Below, piece by piece: positions 6,017 through 59,036 of a stretch of DNA of 64,000 nucleotides. The stretch's first letter is position 1; the number at the start of each line of letters is the position of its first letter. Both the position numbers and the translations under genes were made by a program. The notes under the pieces were generated by a model that was not told the origin of the DNA, made no database searches, and saw only the letters and a list, made by a program, of their open reading frames with translations. The stretch is from Lytechinus pictus (taxonomy: Eukaryota). Location of the stretch: NCBI RefSeq assembly GCF_037042905.1, contig NC_087245.1:33792001-33856000 (forward strand). Reading direction: 5' to 3'.

Positions 6017-6330
6017 CATTTTGTTTTGCAAGGGTTTCGCCGCCGTTACCCAGATGTTCGGTGTCCCAGCAGAAAGACTGTTCTCCGGAATGTTCAGAAA
6101 TATCACCGAACAGGAACGAGTACCAACCTCAACGCAGTAATTGTGTGCTTGTGTGTCTGTGTGCGTGTGTGTGCGTGTGCTTGTGTGTGCATGTTTGAGT
6201 GGGTCTGCCAGTGCGTGTGTGTTTGTGTGTGCGTACGTGTGTGTGTGTGTGTTTCAGTCTGTCGGACTGTCTTTGTTCAAAAGAGTGTTTTATTCCCCAC
6301 CCTGTAACTTGGCGCAAGTGAGATCTGACA
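6017..6330 (+). mobile_element. Fragment of an IS630/Tc1-type transposon (N-terminal HTH, DUF4817-like) with its terminal repeat
   Basis: Translation [33 protein letters not shown], then (TG)n and AACTTGGCGCAAGTGAGATCTGAC, which resembles the TIR of 45826-46291. Confidence 0.6.
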
Positions 6331-7640
6331 GTCTTCTAAAGATTGTCCGCTGTTCAGTCATGCGTGCAGGGGATCAAATGAAAAAGGTACCTGAATGTAC
6401 TGGGAGGATACCTCTATCAAGACATATCATGAAACTAATGATTAAATATTCATATTTTAAACAATTCAACTTTACAAAAGTGGGACATTTTCTTGGTCGC
6501 GGCAAGATTCACGTCAGCAACGATGACTGAACGATCGGAAGGATACCCAGACATTATACATGTTATACGAACAGATGAAATGATATCGTCTATTCTTCTT
6601 GTCAGGATCAAGTCCAACGTGTGACCACCCCGATGGGTCGGCCCATTCACGTGTTGAAAGAAGCTCAACGAATCGATGGAGTATATGAAGGACTTGGCCT
6701 GGGAGTCGTTCACATCGTCAATGTGGATGTTGAAATCAAGAATTATGGGTATATTTTCTGAAATTCCTGCAGTCTCAAGAAGGGTAAGAAACTCCTTCAG
6801 GAACATACTAAAGGTGAACTTGTTGCGTGCTGAAGATGGAGGCCTGTATTCTGCATAGCATCTCAAAACTGATCCTACGGAGAATCGGATAGTAACATCC
6901 ATGAGTTCAAAACTTTTAAAATCAGTCCTATTATTCAAGGTCACTGTCACCGAAGAGCGATACAAAATGCAGATCCCACCTCCTTTGGTTTCAAGGCGAG
7001 GGCAATGCAGAAAATTATAATTCGGAAGTGTGGACTTGATATCACCGATAACCAGATCATCTCTTTGGTTTCCTGATAACCAATATTCTGTCAGGACAAG
7101 GACATCCAATTCATTGTCCATAATCATATCACATATACTTGTAGTCTTATTTGACATGGAATGAGCATTCAAAACGCCAATATGTGAATAGCTTTGCTTA
7201 TAAGGACGAGGGAATCCAACAGGAGATCGCCGACGGACATAATGATCACTTGGATGAGTAGGAGTTTCAATCCAAAACGTTTCAACACGGGGAATTGCAA
7301 ACTTTCTAGCGGTGCGTCCACCTCGTGTACCCCTTTTAGTTTACGGGCGATGTCCCAAGTTTCCAATAGATCCCATTCATCGCGAGAGAATGGCATTAGA
7401 CGACCATGACATTGGGAAGAAACGCTCTGTCCAATACTCAATAGCTCTTCGCGAGAGTAGTTAATCCTTGTCATGGTGTATGAACACAGCATAAATCACG
7501 GCAAGGGTGTATAAGACATAACAATCAAATTTGATGAAAATGGACCCTAACCCCTTTTGCAAGTGAGATCTTCATATATACATATATATATATGTACATA
7601 TATACATATATATATATGCATATATATATATATGTATATA

Positions 7641-9479: not shown

Positions 9480-12400
9480 TTCTCACTTGCAAAAGGGGTT
9501 AGGTCCATTTTCATTTAATTTGATTTTTATGTCTTAATGTATAGAGTTTTACTAGCTCTATAAGATTTTTTTCTTTTATCCTCTTAATCGAGGTATTTAT
9601 TGACAATAACATGTACATATATATACAAACATAAAAAAAAAATTAATTCACTTCAATAATGCAATAATTTTTTGAATATCACATTTTTTCAAAATTCCGA
9701 ACTTGCTTTTTTGTTTACATAAACTTTCTAAATAAATAATCATAGTAAGCTTGAATTCAATCCATAAAGAATTCGCATCATATCTTTTTCCTTTAAATAT
9801 GCTTTTTATGTAATTTCGATAAATAACAAATTGAGCAATAACACAAAATAAATTACACATAACATTGCTGGAACTTTGCAGATCATAACCTATGATTAAT
9901 GTTTTTTCATCTATAGAAATAGTAATCTTAAAAATATAAAATACCAACCTTTCTATAATCTTCCAAAAAAATCGAACATATTTACAATACAGTATGAAAT
10001 GAAAAGTGGTATCAACTTCTCCACAAATGTTACATGAGTTGTTTTCTACTACATGCCACTTAAATAAATTGTCTCTTGAGGGTAAAATCTTGTTCAAAAA
10101 TTTAAAACTAAATTGTCTAATTCTATTATCCACAATTAAATGCAACTTAAAATGAAATACATGGTTCCAACTAAAGGAAAATGGTAATGAAAAAAGATTA
10201 GACCAAAAAGAAACAATGCCTGGTTTTTCCGATACCTCCGAACATAATAAAGAATATATCTTTCTTGTTGGTAAATAATCTAGAGTTATTTGTTCTCCAC
10301 TTTTTAATGAAATTACGATTCGTTCACTTTTTTTTAATTCGAGTGGATAATTTTCCTTTAACAACTTATTCAACCAATAAACAGGAAAAGACTTTATTAA
10401 TTTAGCATATTCTTAATCAAATAAAAGCTGAGAAGAATAGACAGATTTATTTAAAATATTTGGTGCTAACCACTGACGATTTCTTATAACATCTTTTACC
10501 CTAATTATACCTGCATGCTTCCATTTCTCAAATACCAACATACGTTTATTAAAAGTAATATTGCTGTTATTCCAAATGATTTCATTTTCAATGTTTTTTA
10601 CTCCGAATATACCAATATATCTTAACTTAGACCAGCTACAAAAAAAATCATGGTAAAAACTAGGTATATTTGCTTTTGTACAAAGAAAATTCATATCTTT
10701 TGTTGATATATTGTATTCAAAACATAAAGGAATTTCACCAATCTTTGATAACCAATAATTAAAAAGAAATTTCCAACTACGTTCGCCTTGCTCTAACAAC
10801 TTGCTTATCCACGAAATCTTAAGCGATTCAATTTTCGATTCCAAGTGGACCATACCAAGACCACCTTCGTTTGTTTTATTTATACAAACATTTCTTTTAA
10901 CCTTTTCTTTTGAAGAATTCCAAATAAAAGTATATAACATTTTATTTAGAGATTTGATTACTTTCTGGGGAACTCTAATCACTTTTGCAGGATACACAAT
11001 TTGAGACAACAACAAAGTTTTGATGATAATAATTTTTCCGAAAAATGTTAGATTTCTTAGTTTCCATACTCTAATAATATTTTGTATCTTATCTAGTTTA
11101 TTTTGCCAATTATAATCTTCAACATCTTTCTCATTTTTCCCAACATATATACCTAAATATTTTATCGGTTCTTCAGTACATTCTATTTGTCCGGGGACAA
11201 TATCAATATTAAGCTTCAGCAGCTTGGTTTTTTGCAAATTAATCCTTGGCCCAGCATTTGAACCAAATAGTATTAATTCTTCCATCAAAATAGAAAGAGA
11301 ATTTTTATTTTTCATAAATATAGTTGTGTCATCTGCAAATTGGGATATTTTTACTTCTACTTGATCATCACTCATCTGCGAAATCGGTAAACTGAGACCT
11401 TCAATTTTATGATTCTGTTTAATTTTCGTCGCCAAAACTTCTGCAACAATAATAAAAAGTAGTGATGAGAGGGGGCACCCCTGCCTTACACCTCTTTTAA
11501 TTTGAAAAGTTTCAGAGATCCAGCCATGATTTAACACACGGCCTTTTGCGTTTTTATACATCGATTGAATCCACCGAATGAATGAATTTCCAAAATTTAA
11601 TCTTTTTAAAAGGTAAAATTGAAAATTATAAATTATGTTGTCATAGGCTTTTTCAAAATCCAGAAACATAATTATGCCCGGGGCTTTTATGCCCTGATAA
11701 TAATAAATTATATCTTGCACCAGACTTATATTTTCGGCTGAAGACCTTTCTCTAATAAAACCACTTTGATCGGGAGATACAATGCTCGTTATTACATTTT
11801 GTAGTCGTTTGGCAAGAACTTGTGCAAGAATTTTGTAATCAACATTTAGGATTGATATTGGTCTCCAGTTATGAATGATATTTTTATTTCCTTTTTTAAA
11901 CAATAACGCCAACATGGCCATGTTTTGACTTGGAGATAATTGCTGCTTTCTATGTCCTTCATTTAAACTGTTCATTAACATTTCTTTTAGCTTGCTCCAA
12001 AAGCATTTATAAAACTCGGCTGTGAGGCCGTCGCTACCTGCTGATGTATTATTCTGCATTCTTGACAGAGCCTCAGCACATTCCTTTTCGGTTATATCAC
12101 CTTCACAACTCGATGCTTCATTATCATTTAGGATTTGTATATTTGTATGAAATAAATATATTTCGTACTCCAAATCACTAATAGAATTAAGGTCTTTATA
12201 TAAATCATCATAATATTTACGTAATCTCTGTAATATTTTCACCTTATCGGTGATGGTTTTACCGTTGTGTTCTAGGCAATCAACTTCTTTCTTTTTTCCG
12301 TTTCTTTTTTCAAGGCCAAGAAAGTACTTTGTTCATTTTTCATCTTCCTCCATCCACTTCTCTCTCGATCTTATGTAAGCTCCTTTACATTTATAATTAT

Positions 12401-14711: not shown

Positions 14712-15268
14712 TATATATACGTCTTTTCCCCCAAAGAGATATATTTTTTATTTGGCAGCCATTTCAAAAGTGTATAGTTTTTTGGGGACGCACTGTATAG
14801 CATACGTAAGTAAGTTGGCGTTAATGAGCATCTTGGTCTTCCATACTCCCACCCTTCTGCAATAAGACGACAGAGAAGTGATCCAGTCAAATTTAATGTC
14901 ATCATTCATTTCCCGTATGAATTGATATTTCCCAATATTCAAATTTACACCTGTAAGCAGTGCATCCAAGATGAAATAACAATACTCCGGAAAGTAGTGA
15001 TATTTGATCATCTCATTTCATCATAGCTGTAAGTTTTAAATATGTCAAAATTATGAAAAACTATTTTAAAAAAAATTGAACGCTCTAATGAAAATCTAAA
15101 CACACCCGCCAGTCACATTTTACCACGTTCTCTCTTGCAACAACACATATTAAGAAGCGTCACTCGGATAATACACAACTGAACATGAGCATAAGTATAT
15201 ACAATTTTAGACGGCGATCTTTACTAGGATGCCTTAAACAGCAATTATTATGAGAAGAAACCTCTTAC

Positions 15269-15283
15269 CATCTGACGGGAGAT
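15269..15283 (-). CDS. Candidate 15-nt microexon (DLPSD) of the VPS9-domain gene, left copy
   Basis: CCCAG/ATCTCCCGTCAGATG/GTAAGA; identical in the paralog 56231-56245; phase 1-1, joins exon A in frame. Confidence 0.5.
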
Positions 15284-15367
15284 CTGGGAATGTTGAGTTT
15301 CTTTGGGGGCTATTGTCCATGTTTCCACATCCGATATGTACGATTTCGCAATGTGAGTGAAAAAATT

Positions 15368-17020
15368 TTAGTCTCTGATCGACTCCGTTATTGTGTAGTG
15401 CGCGGGTTGCGGTACACTATTCAATTTTATTATCATTTAATCATGTGAAAACAAAACAAAGTTCACTTATCGTAATAGAATGCGAAGAGTTGAGCATATT
15501 GTCTGCAGACATTGACCCTGACCCGATTAAATATATTGACCAACAAGATACGTCTTGAGCCCGATGGACTTATTAGAGTTCATTGACGAAAGTTGGTGTC
15601 CCAGGTCGTCTTCAGATTCGGACCGGATATAAAAATGAAAATATGTCGTTTGTTCAGAGTCCAGGACGATTCTCGACAAAGGCTGCTTTTGACAAAAGAT
15701 TCTATGCGTTATACTTTTGAAATGGCTGCCAAATAAAAAAATATATATCACTTTTGGGGAAAACACATATATGGAAGCCAATAAAGTCAACATTCAAATG
15801 ACACCAAAAAGTTGGAAAACTATTCATGCTTGAGCGATCACTGCCCACTGAAACAAATGGTATGAAAATTAGGCTGGGCCTAATTGAGATGGAGATGGAG
15901 GGAGGGGCTGCTAAATGTTCGGTTGACCTTTATCCCATCAACATACTTCAACTATTTTAGTCTTATCTTACCCCCTATTCTCCTGACTCTCATGAACATT
16001 TTAGTCTACCGATCGACTCATTATGTTTTGCTCAGGTTGCGGTACACTATTCAATTTTATTATCATTTAATCATGTGAAAACAAAACAAAGTTCACTTAT
16101 CGTAATAGAATGCGAAGAGTTGAGCATATTGTCTGCAGACATTGACCCTGACCCGATTAAATATATTGACCAACAAGATACGTCTTGAGCCCGATGGACT
16201 TATTAGAGTTCATTGACGAAAGTTGGTGTCCCAGGTCGTCTTCAGATTCGGACCGGATATAAAAATGAAAATATGTCGTTTGTTCAGAGTCCAGGACGAT
16301 TCTCGACAAAGGCTGCTTTTGACAAAAGATTCTATGCGTTATACTTTTGAAATGGCTGCCAAATAAAAAAATATATATCACTTTTGGGGAAAACACATAT
16401 ATGGAAGCCAATAAAGTCAACATTCAAATGACACCAAAAAGTTGGAAAACTATTCATGCTTGAGCGATCACTGCCCACTGAAACAAAGGGTATGAAAATT
16501 AGGCTGGGCCTAATTGAGATGGAGATGGAGGGAGGGGCTGCTAAATGTTCGGTTGACCTTTATCCCATCAACATACTTCAACTATTTTAGTCTTATCTTA
16601 CCCCCTATTCTCCTGACTCTCATGAACATTTTAGTCTACCGATCGACTCATTATGTTTTGCTCAGGTTGCGGTACACTATTCAATTTTGTGTCATGTAAT
16701 CATGTGAAAACAAAACAAAACAAAGTTCAATTATCGTAATAGATTGCGAAGAGTTGAGCATGTTGTCCCCAGACATTGACCCTGACCCGATTAATTATAT
16801 TGAACAACAGATACGTCTTTAGCATCCACTTCGCAGACGCTTCAACGTTTAGAAATTATTGAAAATGTCCGTCAAATCCCAATGGACAGATAAGAGTTCA
16901 TTGACGAAAGTTGGTGTACCAGGTCGTCTTCTGATTCAGACCGGACATAAAAATGAAAATATGTCGTTTGTTCAGAGTCCAGGACGATTCTCGACAAAGG
17001 CTGCTTTTGACAAAAGATTT
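15368..17020. repeat. 630-bp tandem duplication (two near-identical units plus a diverged partial third)
   Basis: Identical ORF translations at 15527/16157 and near-identical at 15884/16514; each unit is a decayed exon piece plus a deleted Tc1-MITE piece. Confidence 0.9.
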
Positions 17021-18920: not shown

Positions 18921-20312
18921 TAGTCTTATAATGGTTCCATGGCATTTGCTACACTGCAAATTCCACACATTAATGGAATGACCAAGTTCAACCATGGATT
19001 TAACACTATACCTTATCCTAAACCTAACCCTTTTTCTTAGACGAAATGGACCCGGAGCACATGTCGTGTCACCCTTATAATAAGGGTCTAACTTAGGTCG
19101 CATTCACTTGACTTACTTTACCCCCATCAGTGGGATAACGCTCATTATCATCACTCTATATACGATGAAAGGTGAATGAAATTACAAGTAATCAAATGTT
19201 TTATCTTCATTGACGAACGTGATTTGATTCCTCGGTGTGAGACATTTTCTGCGTTTTTGAATCCGTCCCGGTTGCAGTTGTGAAAATTCCCTAATTACTG
19301 CGATGCAACTCTCATGGCAGTAAGTAACCTTAATGCGTATAGGTGTTTAGCATTTTTATTGCCAACTGATAACCGTATCAGATAAGTTGCTTCGCATATC
19401 TAATATTATATTTATTTATATTCCTTCTATGAATATTCTTGCGTATACTTTACTTAATAAATTATTGTTAAATTGGTCACGGTGCTCGGGGTATAAACTA
19501 TAATTCAACACTATTCTGCATGAATCTGCAGTGCCTTTTGCTATTCATTGATGAAATGTGAACGAAGTATCGCAAAAATATCGTTTAACATGAAAATGTT
19601 ACCGGTTTTTTTTGGCCACATCTGTCAGCCTTTAAAAAAAGGGGCGGATCCAAGTTTTTCCAAGGGGGGGGGGCACATTTTCCATAGGAAAAATCTGTCA
19701 ATATAAAAAGATTTTTAGGGTTTCAACCACAATAAAAAAAAGTACATTTCAACGAACAATTTTGACATTTTGTATTTACTGCAGTAGTTCTTCACGGGGC
19801 CAATATTGCCATTAATTATCGAAAATTATGAAAGTAATCATAAACATTGTCTTGAATGAATGTTCCTATGAAAATGGAAATTTTTAGAAAGTTGAAATCT
19901 TATAACTCTACCTAGCAATTTTCTTATCAACTATTCAGTTTTGCTTTTGACTTTGGTTAAAGGTCGAATAATTGCACAAGACAAGTTAATATTCAAAAAT
20001 TTCAGCTCGCGCTTCGCGCACGCATTGTTTGTTTAGTAAGACAAGTACGTATCATTATTACAAAAGTTTGCTTATAATTTCCCTTTTTTGGTTTGAATAT
20101 AAGAATGTTCAGCTCGTGCTTCGCGCTCGCATGATCTGATTTGGGAGATACATATCTGTTTAATTGCACAGTCCTTAAAATGTCTCTATTATGTCGGTAT
20201 ACCTGGCAAGTGAGCGCGCTTAGAGCGCCCTCTAAGTGTGACTCAAAATATTTACTGGTGCCCCCCCCCCCCCATGCCGTGATCCCAGCTTGTGTTGCAC
20301 CTTTTTATCAAC

Positions 20313-23300
20313 CACGTATGTTCACGGCCTCAACTCAGTCGAGCGCGCCATTGAAAGGCCTTTTCGCCTAGCAATATTGTTAGCGACGTTTGTTAGCATC
20401 ACTTTGCTCACTCTCCAAAATGTCTGCGACATTAAAATTCTAAAAACAATGGATTTGTTCAATTTTTAGTGAGGCTATGAATGTTTATCATTTACATTGA
20501 CTATCAGTGTACCAACATATACCGAATTTACAAGCAAGTGTGGGTAAGACTTTGAATTATCAGTCATTTCGATGCAATCCCAAAATTGATGAAAATATAA
20601 CAGAAATTTGATATAGCATTGCAAAATCCTTATTTTCATATCCCCTTAATTTTTAATCATTTGCAAAAGCATCTTAGTACGTTTCCTAGAATTTTTCACA
20701 GCTGATAACGGTGGTGGCTTATTGATTCTAGTTTTTTTAAAGAAATGGCAGGCATTTGAAATCAGGTAAATTGTTGTTATATTTTTAAAAGAAAATCGTT
20801 AGATTCGAACAACTTACTAATAGTTCTCCAAAAGAAGGGTTATATTCAATTATCTGTGTGTAAATGATACATGACGACAAATTTTACGAGTATATCATTG
20901 CATGTTGGATAACCTTTTCCACGATGAGTTTCGTAATTGAGAGAAAAATCAAGTTCATTCCTAGCACGCGAGCCGCAGAATGATAAATTTTAGCGTGCGC
21001 ACACGGGCTGATCGCCGTGTCTGCGGGGACGGATATCTAGTCCCATACTGGTGTAAGGTGGTATTTTCCACGTACCTTTTCCCCTTGTAATGACCACTTC
21101 GCACTTTAATACTTAATTTTGACACTTAATCTGTAAAATTAATGGTTTAACGATTTTGGAAAATGTTCGGAATATACCTAACACATAAATGATTTCATTT
21201 TCTAGAATTATTATTTCTTTCCTGAATTACCAAAAGGCAAATTTAGGTCAAGATTGCATATACTCACATTGACTGTTTAGCATAGCGCATATCTATTACA
21301 ATTTCTATTATGTGTGTCTATATTAGATAAATTGTCCTGATGTAAATATATGTTATAGAATCATATTGGATACAAAAATCATGACGGGTGTCATGGTCTG
21401 AGTTTTCTTTGTGTATAACAAACAAAATACTGCATGATTCCAATTTTATTTGAACATATCATCGTATGCAACGGCAATTTCAATCAGTTTATAATTTTCT
21501 TTTGCTTAGTCAGCGTTTATTTTTCAATGAGCAGAATTGGTTCGCAAGCGGTTTTTACACCAAAGAGCTTGCCAAAGAGCTCATTCCTGGCACTTCGACT
21601 AAAGATGGATATGATTATTTTGTTTCTCATGGTTATCCATTTTTAAAAACAATATTTATTTACTGCAGCCAACGAGTTCCTGACACAATATAATTTTTGA
21701 CTTAAAACCACATTATGAATGTCCCCCGAGCGGTCTTAAAATAAAAAAGAAATACCCTTTTTCGCAAATGAATCATAGTTGTAGCTGTAAAATTACTTTG
21801 TCTTAATTCCTTTCCTCTTAATTTAATATTTTAGTATTTCATTTACATAACCTAAATGAAGGAGGATTCGGAACGATTATTGTTTGATGATTATGGGTGT
21901 GAAAGGACCCCTCCCCAAAAATAATAATGAGTAAGAATAAATAAATAAATGAATAAATAAATTAAATTAAATTAAATTAAATTAAATTAAAATAAAAGTC
22001 AGTAATCTTTAACAGGATAGTTCGAAAGCTTATTTTCAGTGGGGTCCTCAACACGTATAGAATTGTAATTATAAAAGGTAAAATCTGTTTACACTATAAA
22101 TATGAATATGAACTACTATTAAAAATAAATAAGATCTTGAGATGGTATGTACAAGAAATATTTAAAAAAGAGAACGAAGAAGAAAGTTGAAGGTATAATG
22201 TTGTCTCAAGCGGATCGGGAGAAGGGGGTGCTCATTTCCCTCTCTTTTCCAATACACCGGGTGAGTTATGTATATCTCAATATTGATTTTATAACAAACT
22301 ACTTAAAATCCCCATTTCATGACAGATTATAAAAAAATTCGGCTTACGATTTGTGCTCGCATTGATTGTTGAAAATATATTAAATCGTGCATCATAATTA
22401 CAAAAGTGCTTTAAATGTCCATTTTTCAAGCCATAATATTAACAGATTACGCGCTCTCATTAGGCTTATTAGACTAATAAATAAGATATTAATTTAGTCA
22501 TCACTATGTCCTTGTTTTCAGAATGGAATATCGACAAGTTCTATTTCGTGCTTAGGAAGAGAAATAGGAAGACAGTCATCATTTTCATTTGATGACATAA
22601 TGTTCTTAGGATGTCCCGGTCCTAGGTCAAAACTCAAAGGAATAATATTGAAACATATCGGCTTTTTTAAAACTGTGATCCAAATCCACCTCACAATTGT
22701 CCTACAAAGTGCTTGAAATACAGAGATTAAATTGTCCCTTTTTCAGATCGGAATATCAAATACTTTAAGCTCGCGCTTTTTGCGCTCGCTTTATTGATTT
22801 TCATGATGTAAAAGGTATTTAGAATGCCCAGATTCTAGGTCGCGCATGTTTATTCAGATACGCAGCTTGTTCACTATTTAAATCATCCAAATATCAAACA
22901 TTTTGTGCTCGCATTATAAGATTTCCAATTATCATTTTCATGATTTACACAAAATGATCAGAGTGTCCCATTTTTGGGTGTAAATCTCGATTTTTTTCCG
23001 CACGCGCTTCGCGCTCGCATCAATTGTTTAGTCATTTACTTATTATTATCACGATTACAAAAAGTGCTTAGAATTTCCGTACTTCGTCTACAAATGTCAA
23101 AATTTTCAGCCCACGCTTTTCGCTCGCATTATTTGATTGTTGAAAAATGTAAGGTAGTTGCGGTGGATACACATCTGTCTTAGGATCACAAACATTGCCC
23201 AGAATATTTAGATTTTAGGACAAAATACTTTGCACTCGCACTAATCAAATAAGGCTTATGAGATTATTATATATTTATGTTGATTTATAAGAATAAAGCT

Positions 23301-24173
23301 TAGACTATTATAATAAAAGACTACCCCTTCAAAGATACAAACAAAAATCAACTTCGAGTGGCCGATCGGGAAAATGTGGCTAAAAAAATTCGGCTCCCCC
23401 CCCCCCCATATTGGCAAAGGCTGGATCCGCCCCTGTCTACTGATAGCTCTTGAAGGGGGGGGGGATGAGTTACCCTTGAATATTATTGTTGAATATTCAG
23501 CTCAATATATTGCTTTGACCCCCATCCCTTCACACACGTTTTGTATATCCCCGTCTACTAACAGCTCTGGGGGGGGGGGACCATTTTTTTTTTAACTCAA
23601 CATAATTATTGCTCTCACCCCCCCCCCCCCGATCAGATGAATTACGCCACTTGACGTGCGTGATTTCAATTGCAATATAGCCCCAAGATCCACTGACTAT
23701 TTATTTAGCTTACACATTAAAAAAAACTGGAGAGTTGTCAAACTCAACACAAATATACAATAAAATAACAACAAAATAACATACTATAGAAAGAAAGTAT
23801 TAAAAAAATTGAGAACTTAGTACAATAAAGATAATAAAATGTTGAAATTTTCTACCCCCGTCTCCCACACTCGATCTATTACGTATTAGACAATGATATG
23901 AAATTATGCTGATCTGCCTTTATTTGCGCACGATATTCTTAACTAAAGTCATGATATGACCATTGATATAATGGATTATAAATTTTCATAGTTTGATCAC
24001 ACCATATCCACTTTAAATCCCTGGAAATTCCAGCAACAATACATGTTGTCATGGTACGACACACATTTTCTTTATTGAAAAGTATCACGACACCAACGTT
24101 GAAACTGTGCAAAGGCCTTTAATGGCGAACTCCACTGGGTTGATACATAGCCTATGGGTGATGAACATACGTG
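20313..24173. mobile_element. Non-autonomous CAC-terminated DNA transposon with 4-bp TSD (Chapaev-like or RAG/Transib-related)
   Basis: TIR CACGTATGTTCA at both ends; TSD CAAC (20309-20312 and 24174-24177); empty site TTTTTAT-CGAC-GTGAACG in the paralog at 58183-58200. Confidence 0.85.
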
Positions 24174-25164
24174 CAACGTGAACGTCTTTGGATATAAGCT
24201 AATTGCACCCCCCCCCCCTTGGTGACTCCACTTTTAACATTGCTGATTATAAAGATTGTGTATTTTTCCCCGATAATGCCTTAACATATGATTCTAGAGT
24301 TACTATTACTATATTACTATTACTATCCATATCATTTTTATTTTTGTACATTTGGACACCAAAACCATCTACAAACCGTGTTTTCTTGCTGAAATACAAT
24401 TGTTAGTGGCACAGGAATGACCTTGACAATGATCTTTGTCCTAATTTTCGGAGGTCAGAATTTGGTCCTAATGTTCAGTAGTCATTGCTTATCAACCAAT
24501 TATGTAATTCTATGCATTTTGACACACAAATCATCTATATATCATATTTTATTGTCGATATACAAATTTTAATGGTTAGAAAAAGATCATTGGACTTTAT
24601 TTATTATTATGTGTTTAATGTAGTTGTAAAATCAAATCTTTATATTACACATTATTTATGCACTCTTGTATACATCTATATAATCTGCATAAACTGTACA
24701 CTTGTGCATTGTTTATAATTGCACCTTAACTGTAAATGTCATTGTGACATAGGGAGAAGGGGGAGCATTATGGAAGCGGAGCATCGATGGGTACGGAAGG
24801 AGCTTTCAAGTTCTACTCATGTACAGGTGCGTTCCATTTGCTGATTGTATAAAGGGCAGTTCCGTAAAGTAATCGAACTTTGTTCTATTCACTTCACTTC
24901 ATTTGAATATAAACTACTCCAACCGTGATCATTTAAAAGCAATACCACCATTCATGTGAACTAAAAAGTAAGAACTCATTCAAGGAAGATCCCACAAATG
25001 GTAGACAGACATGTGAATCTTATAGAATTGCCCAGAAGCTATTACATTTGAGCAGTCATAGCAATCAACATGATGATTGTGGTTCTAAATTCCATGAAAT
25101 GAATCAGCATGTTTGTGCATCCGACCACCATTTTTATTCACTCTTACACCACTGTCATGAAATG

Positions 25165-28100
25165 CATCAACAGATAAAGTGGCAAGAGTGTTAAGTTTAT
25201 CTCTTACAAATCCAAACTCGCTCGGCGTAAATTAAAAGGATCTAAAGTAGTAGTATTAGAGGACTTGACGAAAAGGAACGCCAATTCGCTATCACAAATG
25301 AAAAAGTACGTTCGGCCTGGACAATGGATGGAAGAATATTTGCCTTAATCAAAACAACAAATGGCAAAGAAATACGTAAACTCATTACATCTCACACCGC
25401 TCTGTCAAACTTGTAGTCACAGGACTTTGAAATTTTGTAGTCCCAATTTGCTGACACTAATAATCATCTACATGTATAATCTATGTAATCTACATCAATA
25501 TTCTGCATCTGAAGGTTATTTTTACCTTGAATCACTGCATCCATGTATTGTTTGTACATGTATGTTATGAGCTTTGATATTTATTGATAATTTTGTATAC
25601 ATACATGTATACATGTATACATGTATATATTTACATGTATATCAATATCAATATGTATATATCAATCCACATCTATCAATATCAATATTTTTGCACAGGT
25701 TGTGTGACCTTGATCCAGTACATTCATGTACCGTTAATTGTTTGTTTGTTCTTTAACATGTATAGTATAGTATAGTATTTATTTTTCCGATCCAGAATAC
25801 ATAAAAAACAAGACAAATAATACCTATATAAGAGTGAGAGAAACAACAAAATGGAATCGGCTGGATAACCCATATTGAGCTGTGCCAGGCACGACACTGC
25901 TGGTCTTCCATGGGGTCCAGAAAAGAAGCTAATTAAAACTGTTATATTTACAAGCAAATAAAAAATAAATAAATAAAAGGATATGAGTGTACACGAGTAA
26001 TCTATATAATCTAAACGATAAAAGACATGATCATAACTATGCTAGCAATATAATAAAAAGGTGATTGTTAATAACATAATGATTACACATAATACAAATA
26101 AACAATAATCAGATGACCAAAAAAAAAAAAAAAAAGGGACAACCCCGACACCCGCCCCCCCCCCCCCGGGACAGAATGGGCCTATAGTTTTAGAAATCCC
26201 AAAGTTGAAAATTATGTAAGGTGAGACGTTGCGTCTAATGTCATAAGGCAATTTTTGAAAGCATGTAAATTTGTTGCAGATCGGGCACAAGCAGGAAGAT
26301 TATTATATAAGCTGGCGCCTCTATATTCAAAAGTTCTTTTCAAGAATTCAGTATTAGGTTTAAGAGTACATAACTTGTCTCCAAAGCGTAAGTTATACCC
26401 GTGAGTAGATGTTTTAAAACAGTCTGAAATGTAAATCGGGGTCATTTTATTTAGTGATTTAAACATATAAATTAGCAAGTGTTTGTTTCTTCTGGTATAA
26501 AGGGTGTTCCAATCAAGGGCATTGTGGATTTCAGAATTGGATGTGCGAGATGAACGATTTATATATAAAATTAAACGACCAGCGCGGTTTTGGAGTTTTT
26601 GAAGTCTTTCCGTTAGGTATTTACTGGCCGATCCATAAATAATATCTCCATAATCAAAGTGGGGAAGAATAATAGTTTTATAAATGAGTTTGAGAATAGT
26701 TTCGTTTAGAAAGCTTCTTAACTTACCAAGAAATCCAACCATTTGACCTATCTTTTTGATCATTTTATCAATATGAGTATTCCATTTGATTTGGTCGTCA
26801 CAAATTACACCTAAGTATTTAACATCATTAACCTGTTTGATTTTGTTCGTGCCTGGATTTACATTCAGGCATTTGTCTTTTGACAACATATGACGACTGC
26901 CAATTAACATGCAGACTGTTTTTTCGTAGTTAACACTTAATCTATTTTCAGTCATCCATTGATTTAAAATAAGTAGATCGCTGTTTGAAGTAGATTCAAT
27001 TTCATGGACTGAGGCATTGCAATAATATAGTACTGTATCGTCAGCGTACAATTTTAGTTTACTTGACTTTATTTTGATGCTAAGGTCGTTAACATATATG
27101 ATAAATAAAAGCGGCCCTAATAATGATCCTTGTGGGACCCCACATGAGATGACTTTGGTAGATGAAAGAGAGTGATTAACGAGTGTTTGACATGTTCTAC
27201 CGGTTAAATATATGCCTGTGAGGCGCATGATAATATTGTATTTACATCTGTACATCAATATCTACTTGCATATCAACACCGATAAAATCCATGTACATCA
27301 ATAACTACATCGACATGTATATCAATATTTTAAGCCTGAGGTTATATTTATTGATTGTACTGTATTTACATTTATCTATCTATATCAACATTTTTGCATC
27401 CAGTACATCTTTCTATTGGTTGTTTATGCTTTACGCCCTTGAGGTATGAATTTTATTGATAGCACTGTATTTACATCTGTACATCAATATATACATGTAT
27501 ATCAACACCAACATCAACATGTACATCAATATCTACATCTATCAAATATCAATATTTATTGCATATGTTTGACCTTGATCCAATACACCTTTGCATTGTT
27601 TGCTTGTACTCATATGCCTTTGAGGTATGTTATTCATTGACTGTATTGTATTTACATTAATCTACATCAACAGCTACATGTATATCAAAACCAATACCCA
27701 TGTACCTCAACATTTACATCTATCAATATCAATCAAGTGCATCCTCGTATTGTTTGTTTGTTCTTGATTGCATTGTACCTACATTTATCTACATCAATAT
27801 ATCAACACCAATTTTTACATACATCAATATCTATATCTTTATCAATATTTTCTTCATATGTTAAAACGCTGTTTTACAGTGTACCTTGAACCAGTATATA
27901 CTTGTAATGTTTGTTTGTACTTACATGTCTTTGAGGTATTATATTTATTGATATGTACATTTATCTACATTAACAAAATGTATATCAATACCATCTGTAC
28001 ATCAATATCCACATCTATCTACATCAATATTTTTGCATCCAGCACATTCTATTGGTTATTTGTGCTTTATGCCTTTGAGATATGATATTTATTGATAGTA

Positions 28101-31100
28101 GTGTGTTTAAACTTATCTACATCAATATTTACATGTATTTCAGCACTAATATCCATGCACATCAATATCCACATATAAATATCAATATTTTTTGCATTTA
28201 ATGCGTGTTTGATCTTGATGAGGTACATTGTATTATTTGTTTGTACTTACATGTATACATGCCTTTTGAGGTATGATATTTATTTATAGTATTGCATTTA
28301 CATTCATCTACATTAATATCTCTGCATACTTTATCAACACCAATATCCATGTACATCAATATCTACATGTATATCGATATTCTTGCACAATATATTAAAA
28401 GGCTGTTTGACCTTGATCCAGTACATCCTTGTATTTGATTGTACAATATATGCCTTATATATCAGTGTATTTCAAAACTGTATACATGCAATAATAGTAT
28501 TGCGTTATTGCAAGCTGTGTATGTTATTTCCAGAAGATTGGACAGTCTTATTGATAGTTCCTTTTAAAAAAAAAATATTTTGCAGATTCTAGTCTTATTT
28601 TTGAAAAGACACGTTGTTATAATTCCTATTTTCCATGTTATGTTCCTTATAATTCTGCATTTTTTTTCTTTAAACAAGATTGTTATCTTCAACTGTTGTT
28701 GCCCCCCTCGTAGTTAGGTGTTATTTGATATCTTCTTTTTTTCTTCTTCCTTTCTTTGACTTCTGTTTACGTACCTACATTTACATGTCTAGCCGTACAC
28801 CATGTTGTACTTGTGAAGTTATATGTGACCGAAACCATAGTCAAGCTGATTTATCTGATTTTATATGTTCCATTTGCAATGGAAAATCTTTCCTTTTAAC
28901 CATATTATTGAAGATGATGAGTTTTTATGGGCACTTCAACAGGCATATGCTAATTTTCAAAATCTTAAAATTAATCCTTTTGTAATGCATAATAACCTTG
29001 AAGACGTTCATTATTCCCTCAATCTACATGCACAATCTTCTGTAGAAGATATTTCAGAGGATGAGACATTTCAATTTCCAAAAAATCCATGTTCATATTA
29101 TCTTCCTGATGATTTTTGTACTAAATATAGTAACTCTGATGATAGACTATCTCTATTACACTTAAATGCTAGGAGTCTCTGCTCACATTTTAGTAAACTT
29201 GAGGAGTTACTGACTTCCCTTGATTTTAGCTTTTCTGTTATAGGAATATCAGAAACTTGGCTGAATTATTTCATGTTAACGTCTATCTATAATATATCTA
29301 ATTACTCATTTGTGCACACATGTCGTGATTCCAGGCCTGGTGGGGGTGTTGCCTTGTATATTTCCGAAAACGTTGAATTCCTTGAAAGACCAGACCTGAC
29401 TGTAAATAATTCATTCCTTCAAACTATTTTTATTGAAATTGTCAATGTCAACTCTAAGAATATAAATGTTGGAAATGTCTATAGACCTCCCAATACTGAA
29501 ATTGACTCGTTTTTACATGATATGGATTCTCTGCTTTCTCATATACACAATGAAAAAAAAATACTATACTTAATGGGAGATTACAATATCAATTTGTTAA
29601 ATACTGATAGTCACACAAAAAGCATAGAGTTTGCTGATACTATGTTCTCATACAATTTATTCCCAGTAATCACCAAGCCTACACGCATATCATATAAATC
29701 TGCTACCATAATATATTTTTACAAATGCAATCCAATTTGAATATGAAAGTGGGCTACTATATTCTGACATTTCAGATAATTTCCCAATATTTTATGTTGC
29801 AAAAAAATTTAATAATCAATTTCAAGGGAACCCCGTCTGAGGAGAATGATAAATGATGCTGGGATCGATTGCTTAAAAAAGAAATTGATCTGTCTAGACT
29901 GGAAACCAATCTATGCATCCAACGATGTCAACCATGCATAATATGATCTGTTTTACTTAATTTTTTTATGATGCCTATAATGAATGTCTTCCTACTGTTA
30001 ACAGTAAAAAAACAAAACACGATTCCACAAACCATGGATTTCTTCTGGCATCATGAAATCTATAAACAAAAAAATATCCTATATAAAAATTTTCATAGAT
30101 ACTCTGGACCAGAAAAGATTAAAAAAAGGAAAGAAGAAAAATACAAAAGCTATAAAAATTGTTTGGTAAAACTAATTCGGTTTGCTAAAAGAGAATATTA
30201 TAATAAAAAATTTAACACCTTAAGAGGTAACATGAATAAAACATGGAAAGAAATCAATAAAATATTGGGGAAAAAAGCTCAAATTTCTCTACCGACCAAA
30301 ATGTTTTATAATAATGAATCTTTTGATACCAATCAAATGAAATCTAATTATTTCAACAGATATTTCGCAAATTTGGGCAAAAATCTTGCTCAAGTCATCC
30401 CTGACTGCGACACAGACTTCATGTCTTTTTTAGGAAACAACAATATTCATTCAATGTTTTTTTAAACCAACCAATATAAATGAAATACTAAAGATCGGCT
30501 CCTTCTTGAAATTAACGTTTTCCTGTGGCTCTGATGATATTATCCCATCTATTGTGAAAAAATGTATTTATCAATGTGTCCATTAGGAAACAACAATATT
30601 CATTCAATGTTTTTTTAAACCAACCAATATAAATGAAATACTAAAGATCTGCTCCTTCTTGAAATTAACGTTTTCCTGTGGCTCTGATGATAATAATATC
30701 CCATCTATTGTGAAAAAATGTATTTATCAATGTGTCCATCCACTGTCATGACTGTGTCATATATAATATGTCTCTTGAATATGGTGAAGTTCCTAATGCA
30801 TTTAAAATAGCTAAAATTATTCCAATTTTCAAAAAGGGTGACCGTAAAGACATTGTTAATTATAGACCAATTTCTGTTTTACCCATCTTCTCAAAGATAC
30901 TAGAAAAAATAGTTTTTGAACGTTTGTACAGCTTTTTGAATCATAACAATATATTAATCTCACAACAATTTGGTTTTCGTAAAAATTACTCAACGTATAT
31001 GCCAATATTTCACATGTATGATCGTATAATGCAAGAAATAGATAAGGGTAATCTCACTATTGGTATATTTTTGGATCTCTCGAAAGCATTTGACACCGTT

Positions 31101-32531
31101 GACCATGACATACTTCTTTAAAAAAAAAGAAACATTATGGAATAAGAGGTCTCGCTCTTGATTGGTTTGATAATTATTGATCGAATCGCATGCAGTATGT
31201 TGTGGTCAACGGTGTCAAGTCAACTTTCAGTCATGTATCACACGGCGTTCCGCAAGGGTCCGTCCTCGGCCCCTTGCTTTTCCTTTTGTATATCAATGAC
31301 CTTGTGAATTGTTCCTCAATTCTTAATTTCATACTCTTTGCTGATGATACCAGTATCACTCTTTCTCAAAAAATATTATTCCTCTCATTAACACCATAAA
31401 TATTGAACTTCATAAAGTCGTCGTCTGGCTTCAATGCAATAAACTGTCACTGAACCTTGAAAAAACTAAATTTTTACTATTTAAAACACAAACTAAAAAA
31501 ATTGGTACTGACATTCCTCCAGTTATTATGGATGGCAAGATTATTTCCCAGGTATCAAATATCAATTTTTTAGGTATCAAGATAAATGAATTTCTATCCT
31601 GGAAACCTCATATTGATGATTTATGCACTCGTTTATCAAAAAGTACTGGTGTCCTCCGCAAACTAAAGTTTATTTTACCCAGACATGTATTAATTTCACT
31701 ATATAATACTTTGGTTTTATCCCATCTCACTTATTGCTGTATGTTATGGGGGAATGGATTCAAAACACATTTACATAGATTATTTCTTATTAAAAAAAGG
31801 TTAATAAGAACAGTTTGTAATGCACACTTCAATAGTCACACAAACAAGTTATTTCTCGATTGTAAAATATTGAAAATTTGTGACTTGGCTCTTATGTATA
31901 CTTATATATTATGTACAATTACCATTCAAATCTCTTGCCAAATATTTTTAATAATCTCTTCAACACAAATGCCTCTTACCATTCATACTTTACGCGTCAT
32001 TCAGCAGATCTTCACTAATATCTTCCAAAAACTTAAATTACCCCAAATTCTCTACGTTGTAGAGGAATCAAGTTCTGGAATGATTTAAATAATGATATTA
32101 AACAAAGTAAAACCCTAAATAAGTTTAAAAAACTTTTGAAAGTTCAATTTTTCTCTCAGTATAAAAACTCCTGCCAATAGCACGCTGTAGGTCACTATCA
32201 TTTATAATTATTACTTCTAGTTTGCTTGTTTGTTTATTTCCCCTATATTAGCCCATTGTTTCTTTTTTCTCTCTTTTTTTTTTATTGTATTTCAATTTTA
32301 TTTTTTGTTCACTCTTTATGTATGTCTTATATTTATTTGTATTTAAATGTATCATGGTGGTGCCCCACCCACAAGTTTTTTTTTATATGAAAACTTCCAG
32401 GGGCTCCCAATCCCATGTTTTTATCTAATTTGTATATACCTGTATTTTTATGATTGATTGATTGAAAAAAAAATTGAATTGAATTGAAAATTGAAAAAAA
32501 TTGCATTAAATTGAATTGAATTAAATTGAAT
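25165..32531 (+). mobile_element. CR1-group LINE: ORF1 C-terminus, long repeat spacer, frameshifted ORF2 (APE + RT), 3' UTR
   Basis: ORF1 remnant RRKLKGSKVVVLEDLT...WTMDGRIF; ORF2 motifs [68 protein letters not shown]; (TTGAA)n tail; absent from the paralog at 63531-63547. Confidence 0.9.
25761..27210 (-). mobile_element. 5'-truncated CR1-group LINE nested in the spacer of the larger LINE
   Basis: Open RT C-terminal half (CGVPQGSLLGPLLFIIYVNDL, LYADDT, YRGASLYNNLP); AATAAA and (ATACT)n tail. Confidence 0.9.
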
Positions 32532-37226: not shown

Positions 37227-37524
37227 CTGTTGATCATAAAGAAAGTATCAGGAATAATGATTACCAAAACCAGACACCAAACCGTCTTGACTGATATAGG
37301 AATTAGAGTGTGCATGGTAACTATATAGAAGGCAGGGTCTTGATTTAGAAAGAGAAGTGAGCAATGAAAAGAGGACTTATTTAATAATCAGAGAACAGAT
37401 AGATTGCTTAAAGAAATTTGGTTGCCGTTTTAATTACCGACCGTACATCAAGTTGGTGAAAGTGGAAAAGATATATCATAATACAATATAGTTATAATAT
37501 CAGTGAATAACTTGTAACACTTAC

Positions 37525-38434
37525 GTGAGACCTGTTCTTTGACCGACTCAGTCAGAGCTTGAAGACACATGACCAACAAGCGAAGCTTTGCCAAAGGAAA
37601 CCTTTCTTGTAATACCATCCTCAGACAACGGTATGGCTGGCTGAACATCTCTTCAAAACTCAAGGGTCCTTCCAGCAAACTGTTTGTGCTATACCTCTCT
37701 TGTCCAGGATTAGGAAGGGTGCCCTGTCCTTCAGAACGACCGTTTCGAGATTCTGTCATGATGGCAGAGAGATTGTCGAGATGTGGCGATAAATGTATCA
37801 CATCACGCAAGAATGGGTACAAGTTTTCCATCTCCTCAACCAGATTTGATGTCACATATATATGTGATACACTATCTACACATTCAAGTTGATGTTCCGC
37901 TACACTATCGGCACCTATACCCCACTTTGCCACCTGGTTACCTTGTTCATCTTGATCGTATTTCGACCAGTCTGTATACAGATCTTTCCCTGACTTTATC
38001 TCTCTGTAGAAAGCCTGCCTATTGAATCCATGCCTTGATATTGAGGTCAAGTCTTTGCCTGACACACAAGAATCGTCTTCTTCAGAAGATGTTGGATCGG
38101 TTTGCGTACGCTTTTCTATCACAGACACATGTGAGATACTGTCTGCATTTTTTTCGCACTCCCCTAAATCTTCACAGCTGGCATCCTCTTTTACCTTCTG
38201 GCTACTGACCCGACGAAGATCTTCCACTGTCGTTGATTCTCTGTTAAACTTGTGTATAGATGATGGGACAGACAGTGGCCTGATGGAATCTTCATCAGCA
38301 GCCTTCTCTGTGATTTGTGGTGTAGAGATTATAAGAGAAGACTGGCCTGTCTCAATGACTTGTAGACTTCTTCGCTTCCTTTTCCTGGGATCATCTTGTG
38401 AGTGGCGCAGCTTTACCTCGCTGTCATATTCGAG
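37525..38434 (-). CDS. Large exon D of the VPS9-domain gene (S/E/D-rich insert plus VPS9 N-terminal helices)
   Basis: CATACAG acceptor and GTAAGT donor; 910 nt open, phase 0-1; ends FSQPYRCLRMVLQERFPLAKLRLLVMCLQAL, which is VPS9D1-like. Confidence 0.85.
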
Positions 38435-38686
38435 CTGTATGAATGTGGTATTGGACATTCATGATTAAATAATGCATTTTATATTTCTTTATCTTTATCC
38501 GTCACAGCATGCATATAAATATGACCCTAAGTTAAATCTTTGCTTTACTTTTCTCTGTCCGTTTTCCCCTATTTCTCATGCTTTTACTTTCGTTTCCCCA
38601 AAACTCCCCTAATTTTGTGATTAAACATCACAATAGAGTGGTAAAATATGGATTTCAGTGGCGGCACCTAGAGGAAGGGGGGGGGG

Positions 38687-48849: not shown

Positions 48850-48889
<40 letters not shown>

Positions 48890-56245: not shown

Positions 56246-59036
56246 CTGAGAATGTTGAGTTACTTTGGGGGCTATTGTCCATGTTTCCACATCCGATATT
56301 TACGATTTCGCAATGTGAGTGAGAACATTTTAGTCTACCGATCGACTACGTTATTATGTAGTGCGCGGGTTGCGGTACACTATTCAATTTTATTATCATG
56401 TAATCATGTGAAAACAAAACAAAACAAAGTTCACTTATCGTAATAGAATGCGAAGAGTTGAGCATATTGTCTGCAGACATTGACCCTGACCCGATCAATA
56501 GACGGGTCAATATACGACCAAAATACCCTTACCCGGAACAAATTGCAACAAATGATTTTTTAACGGCTTTTTGTTCCGATCCCCAGTTTTCGATAAAGAC
56601 ATTCCAGCTATTCTTTGTTATGTGACGGGCATTTTCAATATATTTTCTGCGTTTTTTAATCCGTCCCAGTTGCAGTTGTGAAAATTCCCTAATTACTGCG
56701 GTGCAACTCTCAAGGCAGTAAGTAACCTTTATGCGTAGGTGTTTAATAATAATAATAATAATTAACATTTATATTGCCAACTGATAACCGTAACACAGAA
56801 GTTGCGTCGCATATCTAATATTATTATTATTTATATTCCTTCTATGAATATTCTTGAGTATACTTTACATAATAAATTATTGTTAAATTGGTCACGGTGC
56901 TCGGGGAATAAAATGTAATTCAACACTATTCTGCATGAATCTGCAGTGCATTTTGCTATTCATTGATGAAATGTGAACGAAGTATCGCATAAATATCGGT
57001 ACATGAAAATGTCACTGTTTTTTTTCTGGCCACATCTGTCAGCCTATAAAAAAGGGGCGGATCCAGGTTTTTCCAAAGGGGGGGGGGGGCACATTTTCCA
57101 TTGTAAAAATCTGACAATGAAAACTAAAAATGTTAAGGATTTCAACGAAAAAAAATTATTAAAAAAGTACATTTCAACGAAAAATTTTGACATTTTGTTT
57201 TTACTGCAGTAGTTCTTCACCGGACCAATATTACCATTAATTATCGAAAATTTCGAAAGTAATCATAAACATGAATGTTCCTGTGAAAATGGAAATTTTT
57301 AGAAAGTTGAAATCTTGTAACTCTATCTAGCAATTTGCCTATCAACTATTCGGTTTTGCTTTTGACTTTGGTTAAAGGTCGAATAATTGCACAAGACAAG
57401 TCAATATTCAGTAGGTCATGCGTTTCTTCCATTATTCTGCATTGGTACAATCTCCATTGGTATAGGTATAGTATCAAAATATAATTGAGTGATATCCTTC
57501 AAAAAATGGAACTTTAAGAACAGGTCTTTTGAATGATTGAAATAGCGATTTTATTTGAACATGGGTTGAAATTTTAAAGATACCCTTGTTTGAGAATTAG
57601 TGATGTACGTTATAAAAAATCTGCTATTATGATTGTTGGCATGTAGACAAATTTTACCGATGATAATACAAATTAACTAAATTGTCATGTTTACAGTGGC
57701 TTAACTACGGGGGGGGGGGCACGGGGCCACGTTTCCCCCCCCCCCCCCCCCCCCATCGGCTGGCCCAAAAAAAAAGAAGAAGAAATTATATTATATAATT
57801 GACTATGGTGACATATCATCTTTATGAATTCCTGAAAAAATAGTCCTTAAAATGTCCCTGTTTGGGGTCAATATATACAAAAATTTCAGCTCGCGCTTCG
57901 CGCACGCATTGTTTGTTTAGTAAGAGAAGTACATATCATCATTACAAAAGTTTGCTTATAATTTCCCCTTTTTGGTTTGAATATAAAAATTTTCAGCTAG
58001 CGCTTCGCGCTTGCATGATCTAATTTGTGAGATACATACATCTGTTTAATTGCACAGTCCTTAAAATGTCTCTATTAGGTCAGTATACCTGGCAAGTGAG
58101 GGCGCTTAGCGCGCCCTCTAAGTGTGACTCAAAATATGTACTGGTGCCCCCCCATGCCGTGACCCCAGCTTGTGTTGCACCCTTTTTATCGACGTGAACG
58201 TCTTTGGATATAAGCTAATTGCACCTCCGCCCCTTAGTGACTCCACTTTTAACATTGCTGATTATAATGATTGTGTATTTTTCCCCGATAGTGCCTTACA
58301 ATATGATTTTAGAGTTACTATTACTATATTACTATTACTATTACTATCCATATCCTTTTTATTTCTGTACATTTGGACACCAAGACCATCTACAAACCGT
58401 GTTTTCTTGCTGAAATACAATTGTGAGTGGCACAGGAATTGCTTATCAACCAATTATGTAATTCTATGCATTTTGACACCCAAATCATCTACATATCATA
58501 TTTTATTGTCGATATACAAATTTTATTGGTTTAGAAAAAGAAATCTTTAGATTACACAATATTTATACACACTTGTACACATCTATAAAATCTGCATAAA
58601 CTGTACACTTGTGCATTGTTTATAATTGCACCTTAACTGTAAATTTCATTGTGACATAGGGAGAAGGGGGAGCATTATGGAGGCGGAGCATCGATGGATA
58701 CGGAAGGAGCTTTCAAGTTCTACTCATGTACAGGTGTGTTCCATTTGCTGATTGTATAAAGGGCAGTTCCGTAAAGTAATCGAACTTTGTTCTATTTGTA
58801 GACAAATTTTACCGATGATAATAAAAATTAACTCAATTGTCATGTTTACAGTGGCTTAACTACGGGGGGGGGGGGGGCACGGGGCCACATGAATATAAAC
58901 TACTCCAACGTGATCATTTAAAAGCAATACCACCAATTATATGAACTAAAAAGTAAGTGAACTCATTCAAGGAAGATCACACAAATGGTAGACAGACATG
59001 TGAATCTTATGGAATTGCCCAGAAGCTATTACATTT

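What the first reader, a model, noticed from the sequence alone, without database searches (positions are those of the whole stretch)
20313..24173. CAC-terminated transposon with bipartite, asymmetrically spaced TIRs reminiscent of RSS/ProtoRAG ends
Seen: left end CACGTATGTTCA-(5 nt)-TCAACTCAGTCGAGCGCGCCATTGAAAGGCCTTT; right end (reverse complement) CACGTATGTTCA-(18 nt)-TCAACCCAGTGGAGTTCGCCATTAAAGGCCTTT. The distance from the first 7 nt to GCCATT is 27 bp on the left and 40 bp on the right. The empty paralogous site fixes the TSD at 4 bp. Known (from memory, to verify): amphioxus ProtoRAG TIRs start CAC and have a second GCCAT-containing block after 27/31-bp spacers with 5-bp TSDs; Chapaev elements start CAC and make 4-bp TSDs. 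Inference: a non-autonomous Chapaev- or RAG-related family with end asymmetry. No transposase is recognisable inside.
Basis: partly seen in the sequence, partly recalled or inferred. Interest (0 to 1): 0.75.

Follow-up and report, generated by a model that had tools for sequence, protein, structure and literature searches.

The report
Chapaev transposon with unequal, conserved ends
This is one copy of a young, gene-less jumping-gene family of the Chapaev kind, whose short and long ends keep the same spacing in several otherwise dissimilar families, hinting that this distant relative of the antibody-gene recombinase RAG pairs two unlike ends.

Summary
The 3,861-bp element has a 4-bp TSD, fixed by an empty paralogous site. 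It belongs to a non-coding family of at least 65 copies. The asymmetry is fixed: 64 of 66 short ends have the 27-bp spacer, 59 of 63 long ends the 40-bp spacer, and 52 of 56 paired elements have 4-bp TSDs. It is Chapaev-like, not RAGL or Transib. No direct autonomous partner was found. A separate element carrying a Chapaev transposase (RAG1-like fold) has the same 27/40 geometry, a third family has 27/39, and a related fourth keeps the 13-bp offset; spacers differ and the first three have unalignable interiors. Each end has a terminal 12-mer, a CAACTYARTG-like box and usually a YY1-like GCCAT box. One family's short end matches ProtoRAG's 5' end in spacer length (27) and 9-mer. Against deep homology: that 9-mer is the YY1 consensus, the fourth family's short end lacks it, and so do other RAGL ends. 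A pairing rule is inferred, not shown. The scan noted unequal Chapaev ends before, on other DNA of this genome (e1-7880981).

The parts
20313..24173 (.). Whole non-autonomous element (family W), 3,861 bp
   Evidence: Boundaries fixed by the empty paralogue and by many genomic copies
20309..20312 (+). Left 4-bp target-site duplication CAAC
24174..24177 (+). Right 4-bp target-site duplication CAAC
20313..20324 (+). Short end: terminal 12-mer CACGTATGTTCA
   Evidence: identical 12-mer ends a degenerate Chapaev-transposase element with a 4-bp TSD at G000:C3:30892673
20331..20340 (+). Short end: box B (CAACTCAGTG in the family; last base private C here), 6 bp after the 12-mer; candidate transposase site (inferred)
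   Evidence: Same offset in families X and F2
20346..20351 (+). Short end: CGCCAT box, G 27 bp after the first 7 nt; YY1-like core (inferred)
   Evidence: YY1 motif CGCCATNTT from PMC7481187
20330..21253 (+). Left arm, 78% identical to both arms of related family X
22255..23487 (.). Internal patch of high-copy host repeats, probably captured filler
   Evidence: Contig depth mostly several-fold to a hundredfold above the rest in three runs; 70% match to flanking repeats
24122..24127 (-). Long end: CGCCAT box, G 40 bp after the first 7 nt
24133..24142 (-). Long end: box B CAACCCAGTG, 19 bp after the 12-mer
24162..24173 (-). Long end: terminal 12-mer CACGTATGTTCA
58190..58193 (+). Empty paralogous target site (CGAC, single copy)

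Best explanation
A recently active, non-autonomous Chapaev cut-and-paste transposon, moved in trans by a Chapaev transposase with a RAG1/Transib-like fold. Shown: family structure, 4-bp TSDs, fixed 27/40 ends, and the same geometry around a Chapaev transposase gene, where the long end is upstream of the gene. Inferred: the transposase grips the terminal 12 bp with its catalytic core and a second site, the CAACTYARTG-like box, set 6 bp in at one end and 18-19 bp in at the other. The 12-13 bp difference is under selection because the transpososome is asymmetric and prefers one short plus one long end. The adjacent GCCAT box is probably a site for a host factor such as YY1, acting as an accessory or regulator as in ProtoRAG, and is not needed on both ends. 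My odds: non-autonomous Chapaev 0.9; spacing under selection 0.7; a real short-long pairing preference 0.4; YY1 binding 0.5.
For: Spacers: 64 of 66 short and 59 of 63 long ends; 4-bp TSD in 52 of 56 elements; a 5-bp match only once, in poly-G. The 7,285-bp element at G000:C18:12617648-12624932 was found by a protein-family search, not by its ends, and has 27/40 ends. It encodes a Chapa zinc finger, DUF1280, C(2)C, H(4)H and candidate DDE residues. Its model matches RAG1 (E 4e-14, TM 0.62, 12% identity), BbRAG1L and HzTransib. Family F2 has 27/39 ends and 4-bp TSDs in 9 of 9 pairs. W, F2 and the C18 element share no alignable interior, yet the best ungapped short-versus-long offset is 12 or 13 in 14 of 15 comparisons (two are ties). 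Family X has 1.1-kb inverted arms but still unequal termini: 32 of 39 short ends pair with a long end, none short-short or long-long. The only head-to-head junction of such ends found in the genome is a precise short-long fusion without a TSD.
Against: No transposase gene flanked by family-W ends was found, so the assignment rests on TSD, termini and shared geometry. All 39 listed X short ends lack GCCAT at that position. The 5' ends of two other Chapaev elements lack GCCAT at 27 or 40, and their 3' ends have only TCCATTTT at 25 and 28. X's short end did not give 12-13 as best offset against any long end. Two W copies with an altered long-end spacer (35 and 62) and two with the box displaced by insertions still have TSDs, though these changes may postdate insertion. 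The head-to-head joint is a single case. W's own boxes (CGCCATTGA, CGCCATTAA) fit the YY1 motif CGCCATNTT only in the core. The C18 element itself has two extra bases beside its TSD. No binding or activity data.
Confidence: 0.65

Rival explanations
1. Ordinary Chapaev family whose asymmetry is inherited and only passively kept: the ends descend from one asymmetric ancestor, the transposase reads only the terminal 12 bp, and the inner boxes are promoter or host-factor sites.
For: Every copy inherits one end of each type, so the lack of like-like pairs is weak evidence. GCCAT is missing from X's short end and from other Chapaev 5' ends. Unequal ends are known in piggyBac and Hermes (search listing only). 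Invertebrate RAGL is proposed to rely on the terminal 15-17 bp (PMC7204232, passages).
Against: Spacer letters have diverged and interiors are unalignable, yet lengths differ by at most 1 bp among W, F2 and C18. Neutral DNA of that age should have gathered indels (inference).
Confidence: 0.25
2. Deep homology: the 'CAC end, 27 bp, GCCATCTTG' design was already present in the common ancestor of Chapaev and RAG-like transposons, and ProtoRAG kept it.
For: F2's short end has the same 27-bp spacer and the identical 9-mer as ProtoRAG's 5' TIR (PMC8289069). The transposase has the RAG1 fold and an N-terminal Chapa domain shared with RAG1 (PMC4411706).
Against: The 9-mer is the YY1 consensus (PMC7481187), so it can arise repeatedly. 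A rough chance of the positional match is 7-15%. Hemichordate and sea-star RAGL ends have no equivalent block (bioRxiv 10.1101/100735, passages). The long ends differ (39-40 versus 31). Protein identity to RAG1 is only 12-14%.
Confidence: 0.15
3. A non-autonomous RAGL or Transib derivative, mobilised by one of the RAG1-like genes of this genome.
For: CAC termini and bipartite asymmetric ends. RAG1-like open frames of over 600 aa exist in the assembly. TSD length can vary within Transib (bioRxiv 10.64898/2026.08.26.747230, passages).
Against: 4-bp TSD in 52 of 56 elements, against 5 bp in RAGL. No RAG1-like match lies near a listed W end. The same termini and geometry flank Chapaev transposase genes.
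Confidence: 0.04

Closest known systems
Chapaev DNA transposons (CMC/CMCT clade; PMC4079192, PMC4411706, PMC12730594, passages read; the 2007 Repbase Reports description was not seen)
   Same: CAC...GTG termini, 4-bp TSD, non-autonomous derivatives; relatives with the same end geometry encode Chapa domain, C(2)C, H(4)H and a DDE core.
   Different: The passages read describe only the CAC termini and short TIRs (11-19 bp for lizard Chapaev3, PMC3014272). No tripartite, fixed-length asymmetric ends or YY1-like box was found in print. Not Chapaev3, which makes TWA 3-bp TSDs.
Amphioxus ProtoRAG TIRs (TR1, 27/31-bp TRsp, TR5; PMC8289069 and PMC7481187, passages read)
   Same: CAC start, unequal spacers, a GCCAT block 27 bp behind the first 7 nt at the short end. 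ProtoRAG moderately prefers unlike ends, and its TR5 binds YY1.
   Different: 5-bp TSD, CACTATG heptamer, 4-bp rather than 12-13-bp asymmetry, and RAG1L plus RAG2L. Here the TSD is 4 bp, there is an extra CAACTYARTG-like box, and relatives carry one transposase gene.
12/23 RSS, asymmetric Transib ends and PflRAGL-A ends (PMC1131882, PMC8355894, bioRxiv 2023.08.20.553239, passages read)
   Same: One short and one long end, with conserved length and variable spacer letters; transposase of the same fold.
   Different: Heptamer plus A-rich nonamer, 10-11 bp difference (one turn) and 5-bp TSD. Here there is no A-rich nonamer and the difference is 12-13 bp.

Membership tests
Chapaev | 5'-CAC...GTG-3' termini | tested here: met
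Chapaev | 3-4 bp TSD (4 bp outside Chapaev3) | tested here: met
   52 of 56 elements, no clear sequence bias; empty site
Chapaev | Own or directly linked Chapaev transposase (Chapa domain, C(2)C, H(4)H, DDE) | tested here: inconclusive
   None in W or between W ends. Present in elements sharing the 27/40 geometry (C18) or the identical terminal 12-mer (C3)
Chapaev | Phylogenetic placement with Repbase Chapaev references | not testable with these tools
   No Repbase or Dfam sequences on hand; homologues are unnamed DUF1280 proteins. The label rests on motifs described in the papers read
Chapaev3 | TWA 3-bp TSD | tested here: not met
   against PMC4079192
RAGL / ProtoRAG | 5-bp TSD | tested here: not met
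   1 of 56, in a poly-G run
RAGL / ProtoRAG | RSS-like heptamer (CACTATG / CACAGTG) with A-rich TR2 | tested here: not met
   Terminus is CACGTAT followed by GTTCA (papers)
RAGL / ProtoRAG | RAG1L and RAG2L genes between the ends | tested here: not met
   No RAG1-like match near listed W ends; no long frames in W. RAG2 was not searched genome-wide
RAGL / ProtoRAG | GCCAT block 27 bp behind the first 7 nt at one end | tested here: met
   W, F2 and C18 short ends; absent in X
Transib | 5-bp GC-rich TSD, CACAATG heptamer and A-rich nonamer | tested here: not met
   against PMC1131882
12/23-like pairing rule | Cleavage or transposition requires one short and one long end | not testable with these tools
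   Indirect only: no like-like pairs and one short-long head-to-head joint
YY1-regulated transposon ends | YY1 binds the GCCAT box | not testable with these tools
   Motif resemblance only: full in F2's short end and C18's long end, core only in W (PMC7481187)

The most novel reading that the evidence does not exclude
Chapaev transposases, RAG1-fold enzymes working without RAG2, enforce their own short/long end-pairing rule (27 versus 39-40), can fuse a short and a long end into signal-joint-like products, and recruit host YY1 at the same distance from the cut site as ProtoRAG. Asymmetric end pairing and YY1 control would then predate RAG2 capture and the split of Chapaev from Transib/RAG, and the apparently intact C18 transposase would make this testable.
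Probability: 0.15. Interest if true: 0.8.

Novelty: new variant of a known kind. Interest (0 to 1): 0.47.

Why it matters
The element alone is an ordinary non-autonomous transposon. What matters is that four families keep one short and one long end at nearly fixed spacing around a RAG1-fold transposase that has no sign of a RAG2 partner. Where the 12/23 asymmetry came from, and whether it needs RAG2, is debated (PMC8355894 and bioRxiv 2023.08.20.553239, passages). Chapaev is an outgroup described as largely uncharacterised (PMC4079192). This genome supplies an apparently intact transposase and natural end variants for a direct test. If YY1 binds, host-factor control of transposon ends extends beyond ProtoRAG.

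Tried and rejected
(1) Private-indel explanation: rejected.
(2) Search for an autonomous W copy. 60 stretches around longer, divergent or unpaired copies were fetched; extra length was nested insertions or flank, with no Chapaev match inside W ends. 118 of the 218 inner-block matches were not listed, so a divergent partner may have been missed.
(3) DUF1280, two protein searches and RAG1: no locus near W ends. The ends of the Chapaev loci at C18:6.89 Mb, C10:23.24 Mb and C19:2.22 Mb were not obtained.
(4) A 'hit' of the W 12-mer near C3:30.89 Mb, first taken as internal, proved to be a true Chapaev end.
(5) Metagenome pattern scan for the geometry in other species: 61 matches, spacers spread from 18 to 45, no TSD-bounded pairs, no Chapaev match; background.
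(6) Sequencing runs: no RNA holder listed. Four runs laid showed the family in three organism labels, but no loose end leading to a transposase.
(7) Rfam: nothing. A box-B pattern in the window gave 0 because of this copy's private base.
(8) Single-sequence PDB search: nothing. The profile search gave only a weak BbRAG1L hit (E 0.004) among coiled-coil noise.
(9) 'One helical turn' reading: rejected, since 12-13 bp is 1.1-1.2 turns.
(10) Earlier-finding look-ups by sequence and by YY1/TR5 words: nothing.

Full report
Observation. Window 20313-24173 begins and ends with CACGTATGTTCA and is flanked by CAAC on both sides. A paralogous block at 56642-58796 lacks the element and has one 4-bp site at 58190-58193. 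The first 7 nt lie 27 bp from GCCATT at the left end and 40 bp at the right. The window is G000:C1:33792001-33856000 in an 812-Mb genome. A database labels a protein identical to one encoded in this genome as Lytechinus pictus, a sea urchin.

The family (W). Pattern searches found 65 left and 65 right ends, with 0 in the controls. In the loci fetched, 64 of 66 short ends have the 27-bp spacer; the two exceptions are one mutated end and its local duplicate. 59 of 63 long ends have 40; the four exceptions are private indels or insertions. Pairing gave 57 rows, of which I dropped one as the duplicated end: 52 of 56 elements have a 4-bp TSD, and one also matches at 5 bp, in poly-G. Two pairs among these are segmental duplicates. 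The four without a TSD are a poly-G site, a one-mismatch site, a 61-kb probable mispairing and the junction described below. Copies are mostly 3.7-4.9 kb, in a young group (95-99% identical to the window copy) and an older one (84-93%). None showed a transposase. The middle is high-copy host repeat.

Which superfamily. CAC termini with a 3-4-bp TSD are the stated Chapaev hallmarks (PMC4079192, passages); RAGL and canonical Transib make 5-bp TSDs. I searched the genome with DUF1280 (my recalled guess at a Chapaev-matching family) and got 13 matches. One lies in a 7,285-bp element on C18. Its ends read CACGTACGTGCA with GCCAT at 27 (downstream of the gene) and at 40 (upstream). It encodes a Chapa zinc finger without a RING, then a core with D112, D182, C201/C204, H498/H503 and E524; calling D112, D182 and E524 the catalytic triad is my inference from conservation. 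The aligned exons are open. A deletion copy has a 4-bp TSD. The model (pLDDT 90) matches RAG1 best (E 4e-14, TM 0.62, 12% identity), then BbRAG1L and HzTransib. A degenerate Chapaev on C3 ends in W's exact 12-mer and has a 4-bp TSD. No Chapaev or RAG1-like match lies near a listed W end, so W's own partner is not identified.

The geometry recurs. Searching the C18 12-mer (294 matches, 30 loci read) revealed family F2, about 2.9 kb, with no Chapaev match in the parts read. It has GCCAT at 27 in 9 of 9 short ends, at 39 in 9 of 10 long ends (one at 40), and 4-bp TSDs in 9 of 9 pairs. A pattern fixing the 27 spacing gave 210 matches against 24 in the control; of the 100 listed, by my count 56 were F2, 33 W, 3 C18-type and 8 singletons. 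A fourth family, X, is related to W through its arms (78%). It has 39 short and 42 long ends listed, and 32 short ends pair with a long one. W, F2 and C18 share no alignable interior. Aligned, each end has a terminal 12-mer, a CAACTYARTG-like box (looser in C18) and, 5 bp on, CGCCAT. The long end is the short end plus 12-13 bp after the 12-mer. The best ungapped offset was 12 or 13 in 14 of 15 comparisons among W, F2 and C18 short ends and five long ends, two of them ties; it was not so in the 10 comparisons using the X and C3 ends. F2 and C18 were found without using the spacing.

The ProtoRAG likeness. ProtoRAG ends are CACTATG, 27 or 31 bp, GCCATCTTG, and unlike pairs are moderately preferred (PMC8289069, passages). 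F2's short end has the same spacer length and the same 9-mer. But that 9-mer is a YY1 site, shown by EMSA; YY1 aids precise end recognition and suppresses transposition (PMC7481187, abstract and passages). Against deep homology: all 39 X short ends lack the box while X was recently active. The 5' ends of the C7 and C3 Chapaevs lack it. Other deuterostome RAGL ends have no equivalent block (10.1101/100735, passages). A rough chance of the positional match is 7-15%. W's own boxes fit the YY1 motif only in the core.

A possible footprint of mechanism. At G000:C4:22082220/22082221 a W short end abuts an X long end with no base between, and neither element nor the pair has a TSD. It is the only such junction found at one mismatch. 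It looks like a signal joint made by pairing ends of two neighbours and losing the DNA between them. One case cannot establish a rule.

Mechanism, as inferred. A RAG1-fold Chapaev transposase supplied in trans binds the 12-mer and the inner box, pairs one short with one long end, excises (hairpin chemistry assumed from RAG/Transib, untested) and inserts with a 4-bp stagger. YY1 may assist or restrain it. The main rival is passive inheritance of an old asymmetry.

Novelty. Searches for Chapaev with TIR, asymmetry, RAG1, YY1, sea urchin or Lytechinus listed no paper on this end architecture; 'Chapaev' with 'YY1' gave 0. Repbase, Dfam, the Repbase Reports descriptions and all supplements were not seen and may already hold these ends. 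Further passages read: PMC4411706, PMC7204232, PMC12730594, 10.64898/2026.08.26.747230 (76), PMC1131882, PMC3014272, PMC8355894, bioRxiv 2023.08.20.553239 (16). Verdict: a real feature and a new variant of a known kind; interest 0.47.

Noticed in passing
L085:9871/9872 and L247 (G000:C4:22082220-22085631): Precise head-to-head fusion of a W short end with an X long end, no TSD; X is a 3.4-kb foldback-like family with 1.1-kb arms 79% alike.
   Followed up: partly
L157-L181 (for example G000:C1:21602466-21605326): Family F2, about 2.9 kb, probably 100 or more copies, 4-bp TSD; its short end carries a perfect ProtoRAG-TR5/YY1 9-mer at 27 bp.
   Followed up: partly
L138-L139 (G000:C18:12617648-12624932): Apparently intact RING-less Chapaev transposase element lying next to a Toll-like-receptor-like gene.
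   Followed up: yes
L140-L141 (G000:C7:22900540 to about 22909665) and L135-L136 (G000:C3:30892673-30898232): A young RING-bearing Chapaev family (four copies 98-99% alike) and a degenerate relative; the C7 and C3 copies both sit inside members of the same tandem-unit repeat family, a possible target preference.
   Followed up: partly
L110:4172-6748 (-): Open 859-aa frame resembling an EnSpm/CACTA transposase (my reading of motifs; no Pfam hit), with a CIDE-N-bearing frame beside it, next to a truncated W copy.
   Followed up: no
G000:C182:16498-18156, C233:18651-20309, C4:15674907-15676589: RAG1-like open frames of over 600 aa; their ends and any RAG2L partner were not examined.
   Followed up: no
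window 19244-24889 versus 56642-58796; 65-2507 versus 46521-48909; 14858-15530 versus 55808-56498: Diverged local duplications (85-92%), which supply the empty site.
   Followed up: partly
window 37448-38458 (-) and 43655-44197 (-): Two related unexplained open frames (336 and 180 aa) around an inverted-repeat element at about 38687-42051.
   Followed up: no
window 2957-7340, 9648-12332, 26212-32088, 50174-51145, 60667-63280: LINE-type retroelement fragments, and a Penelope-like fragment within inverted repeats at about 48856-51996 (read from translations, not tested).
   Followed up: no
runs X7 and X10: The family is present under a second organism label at high identity and, diverged, with pieces at both ends, under a third.
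   Followed up: no
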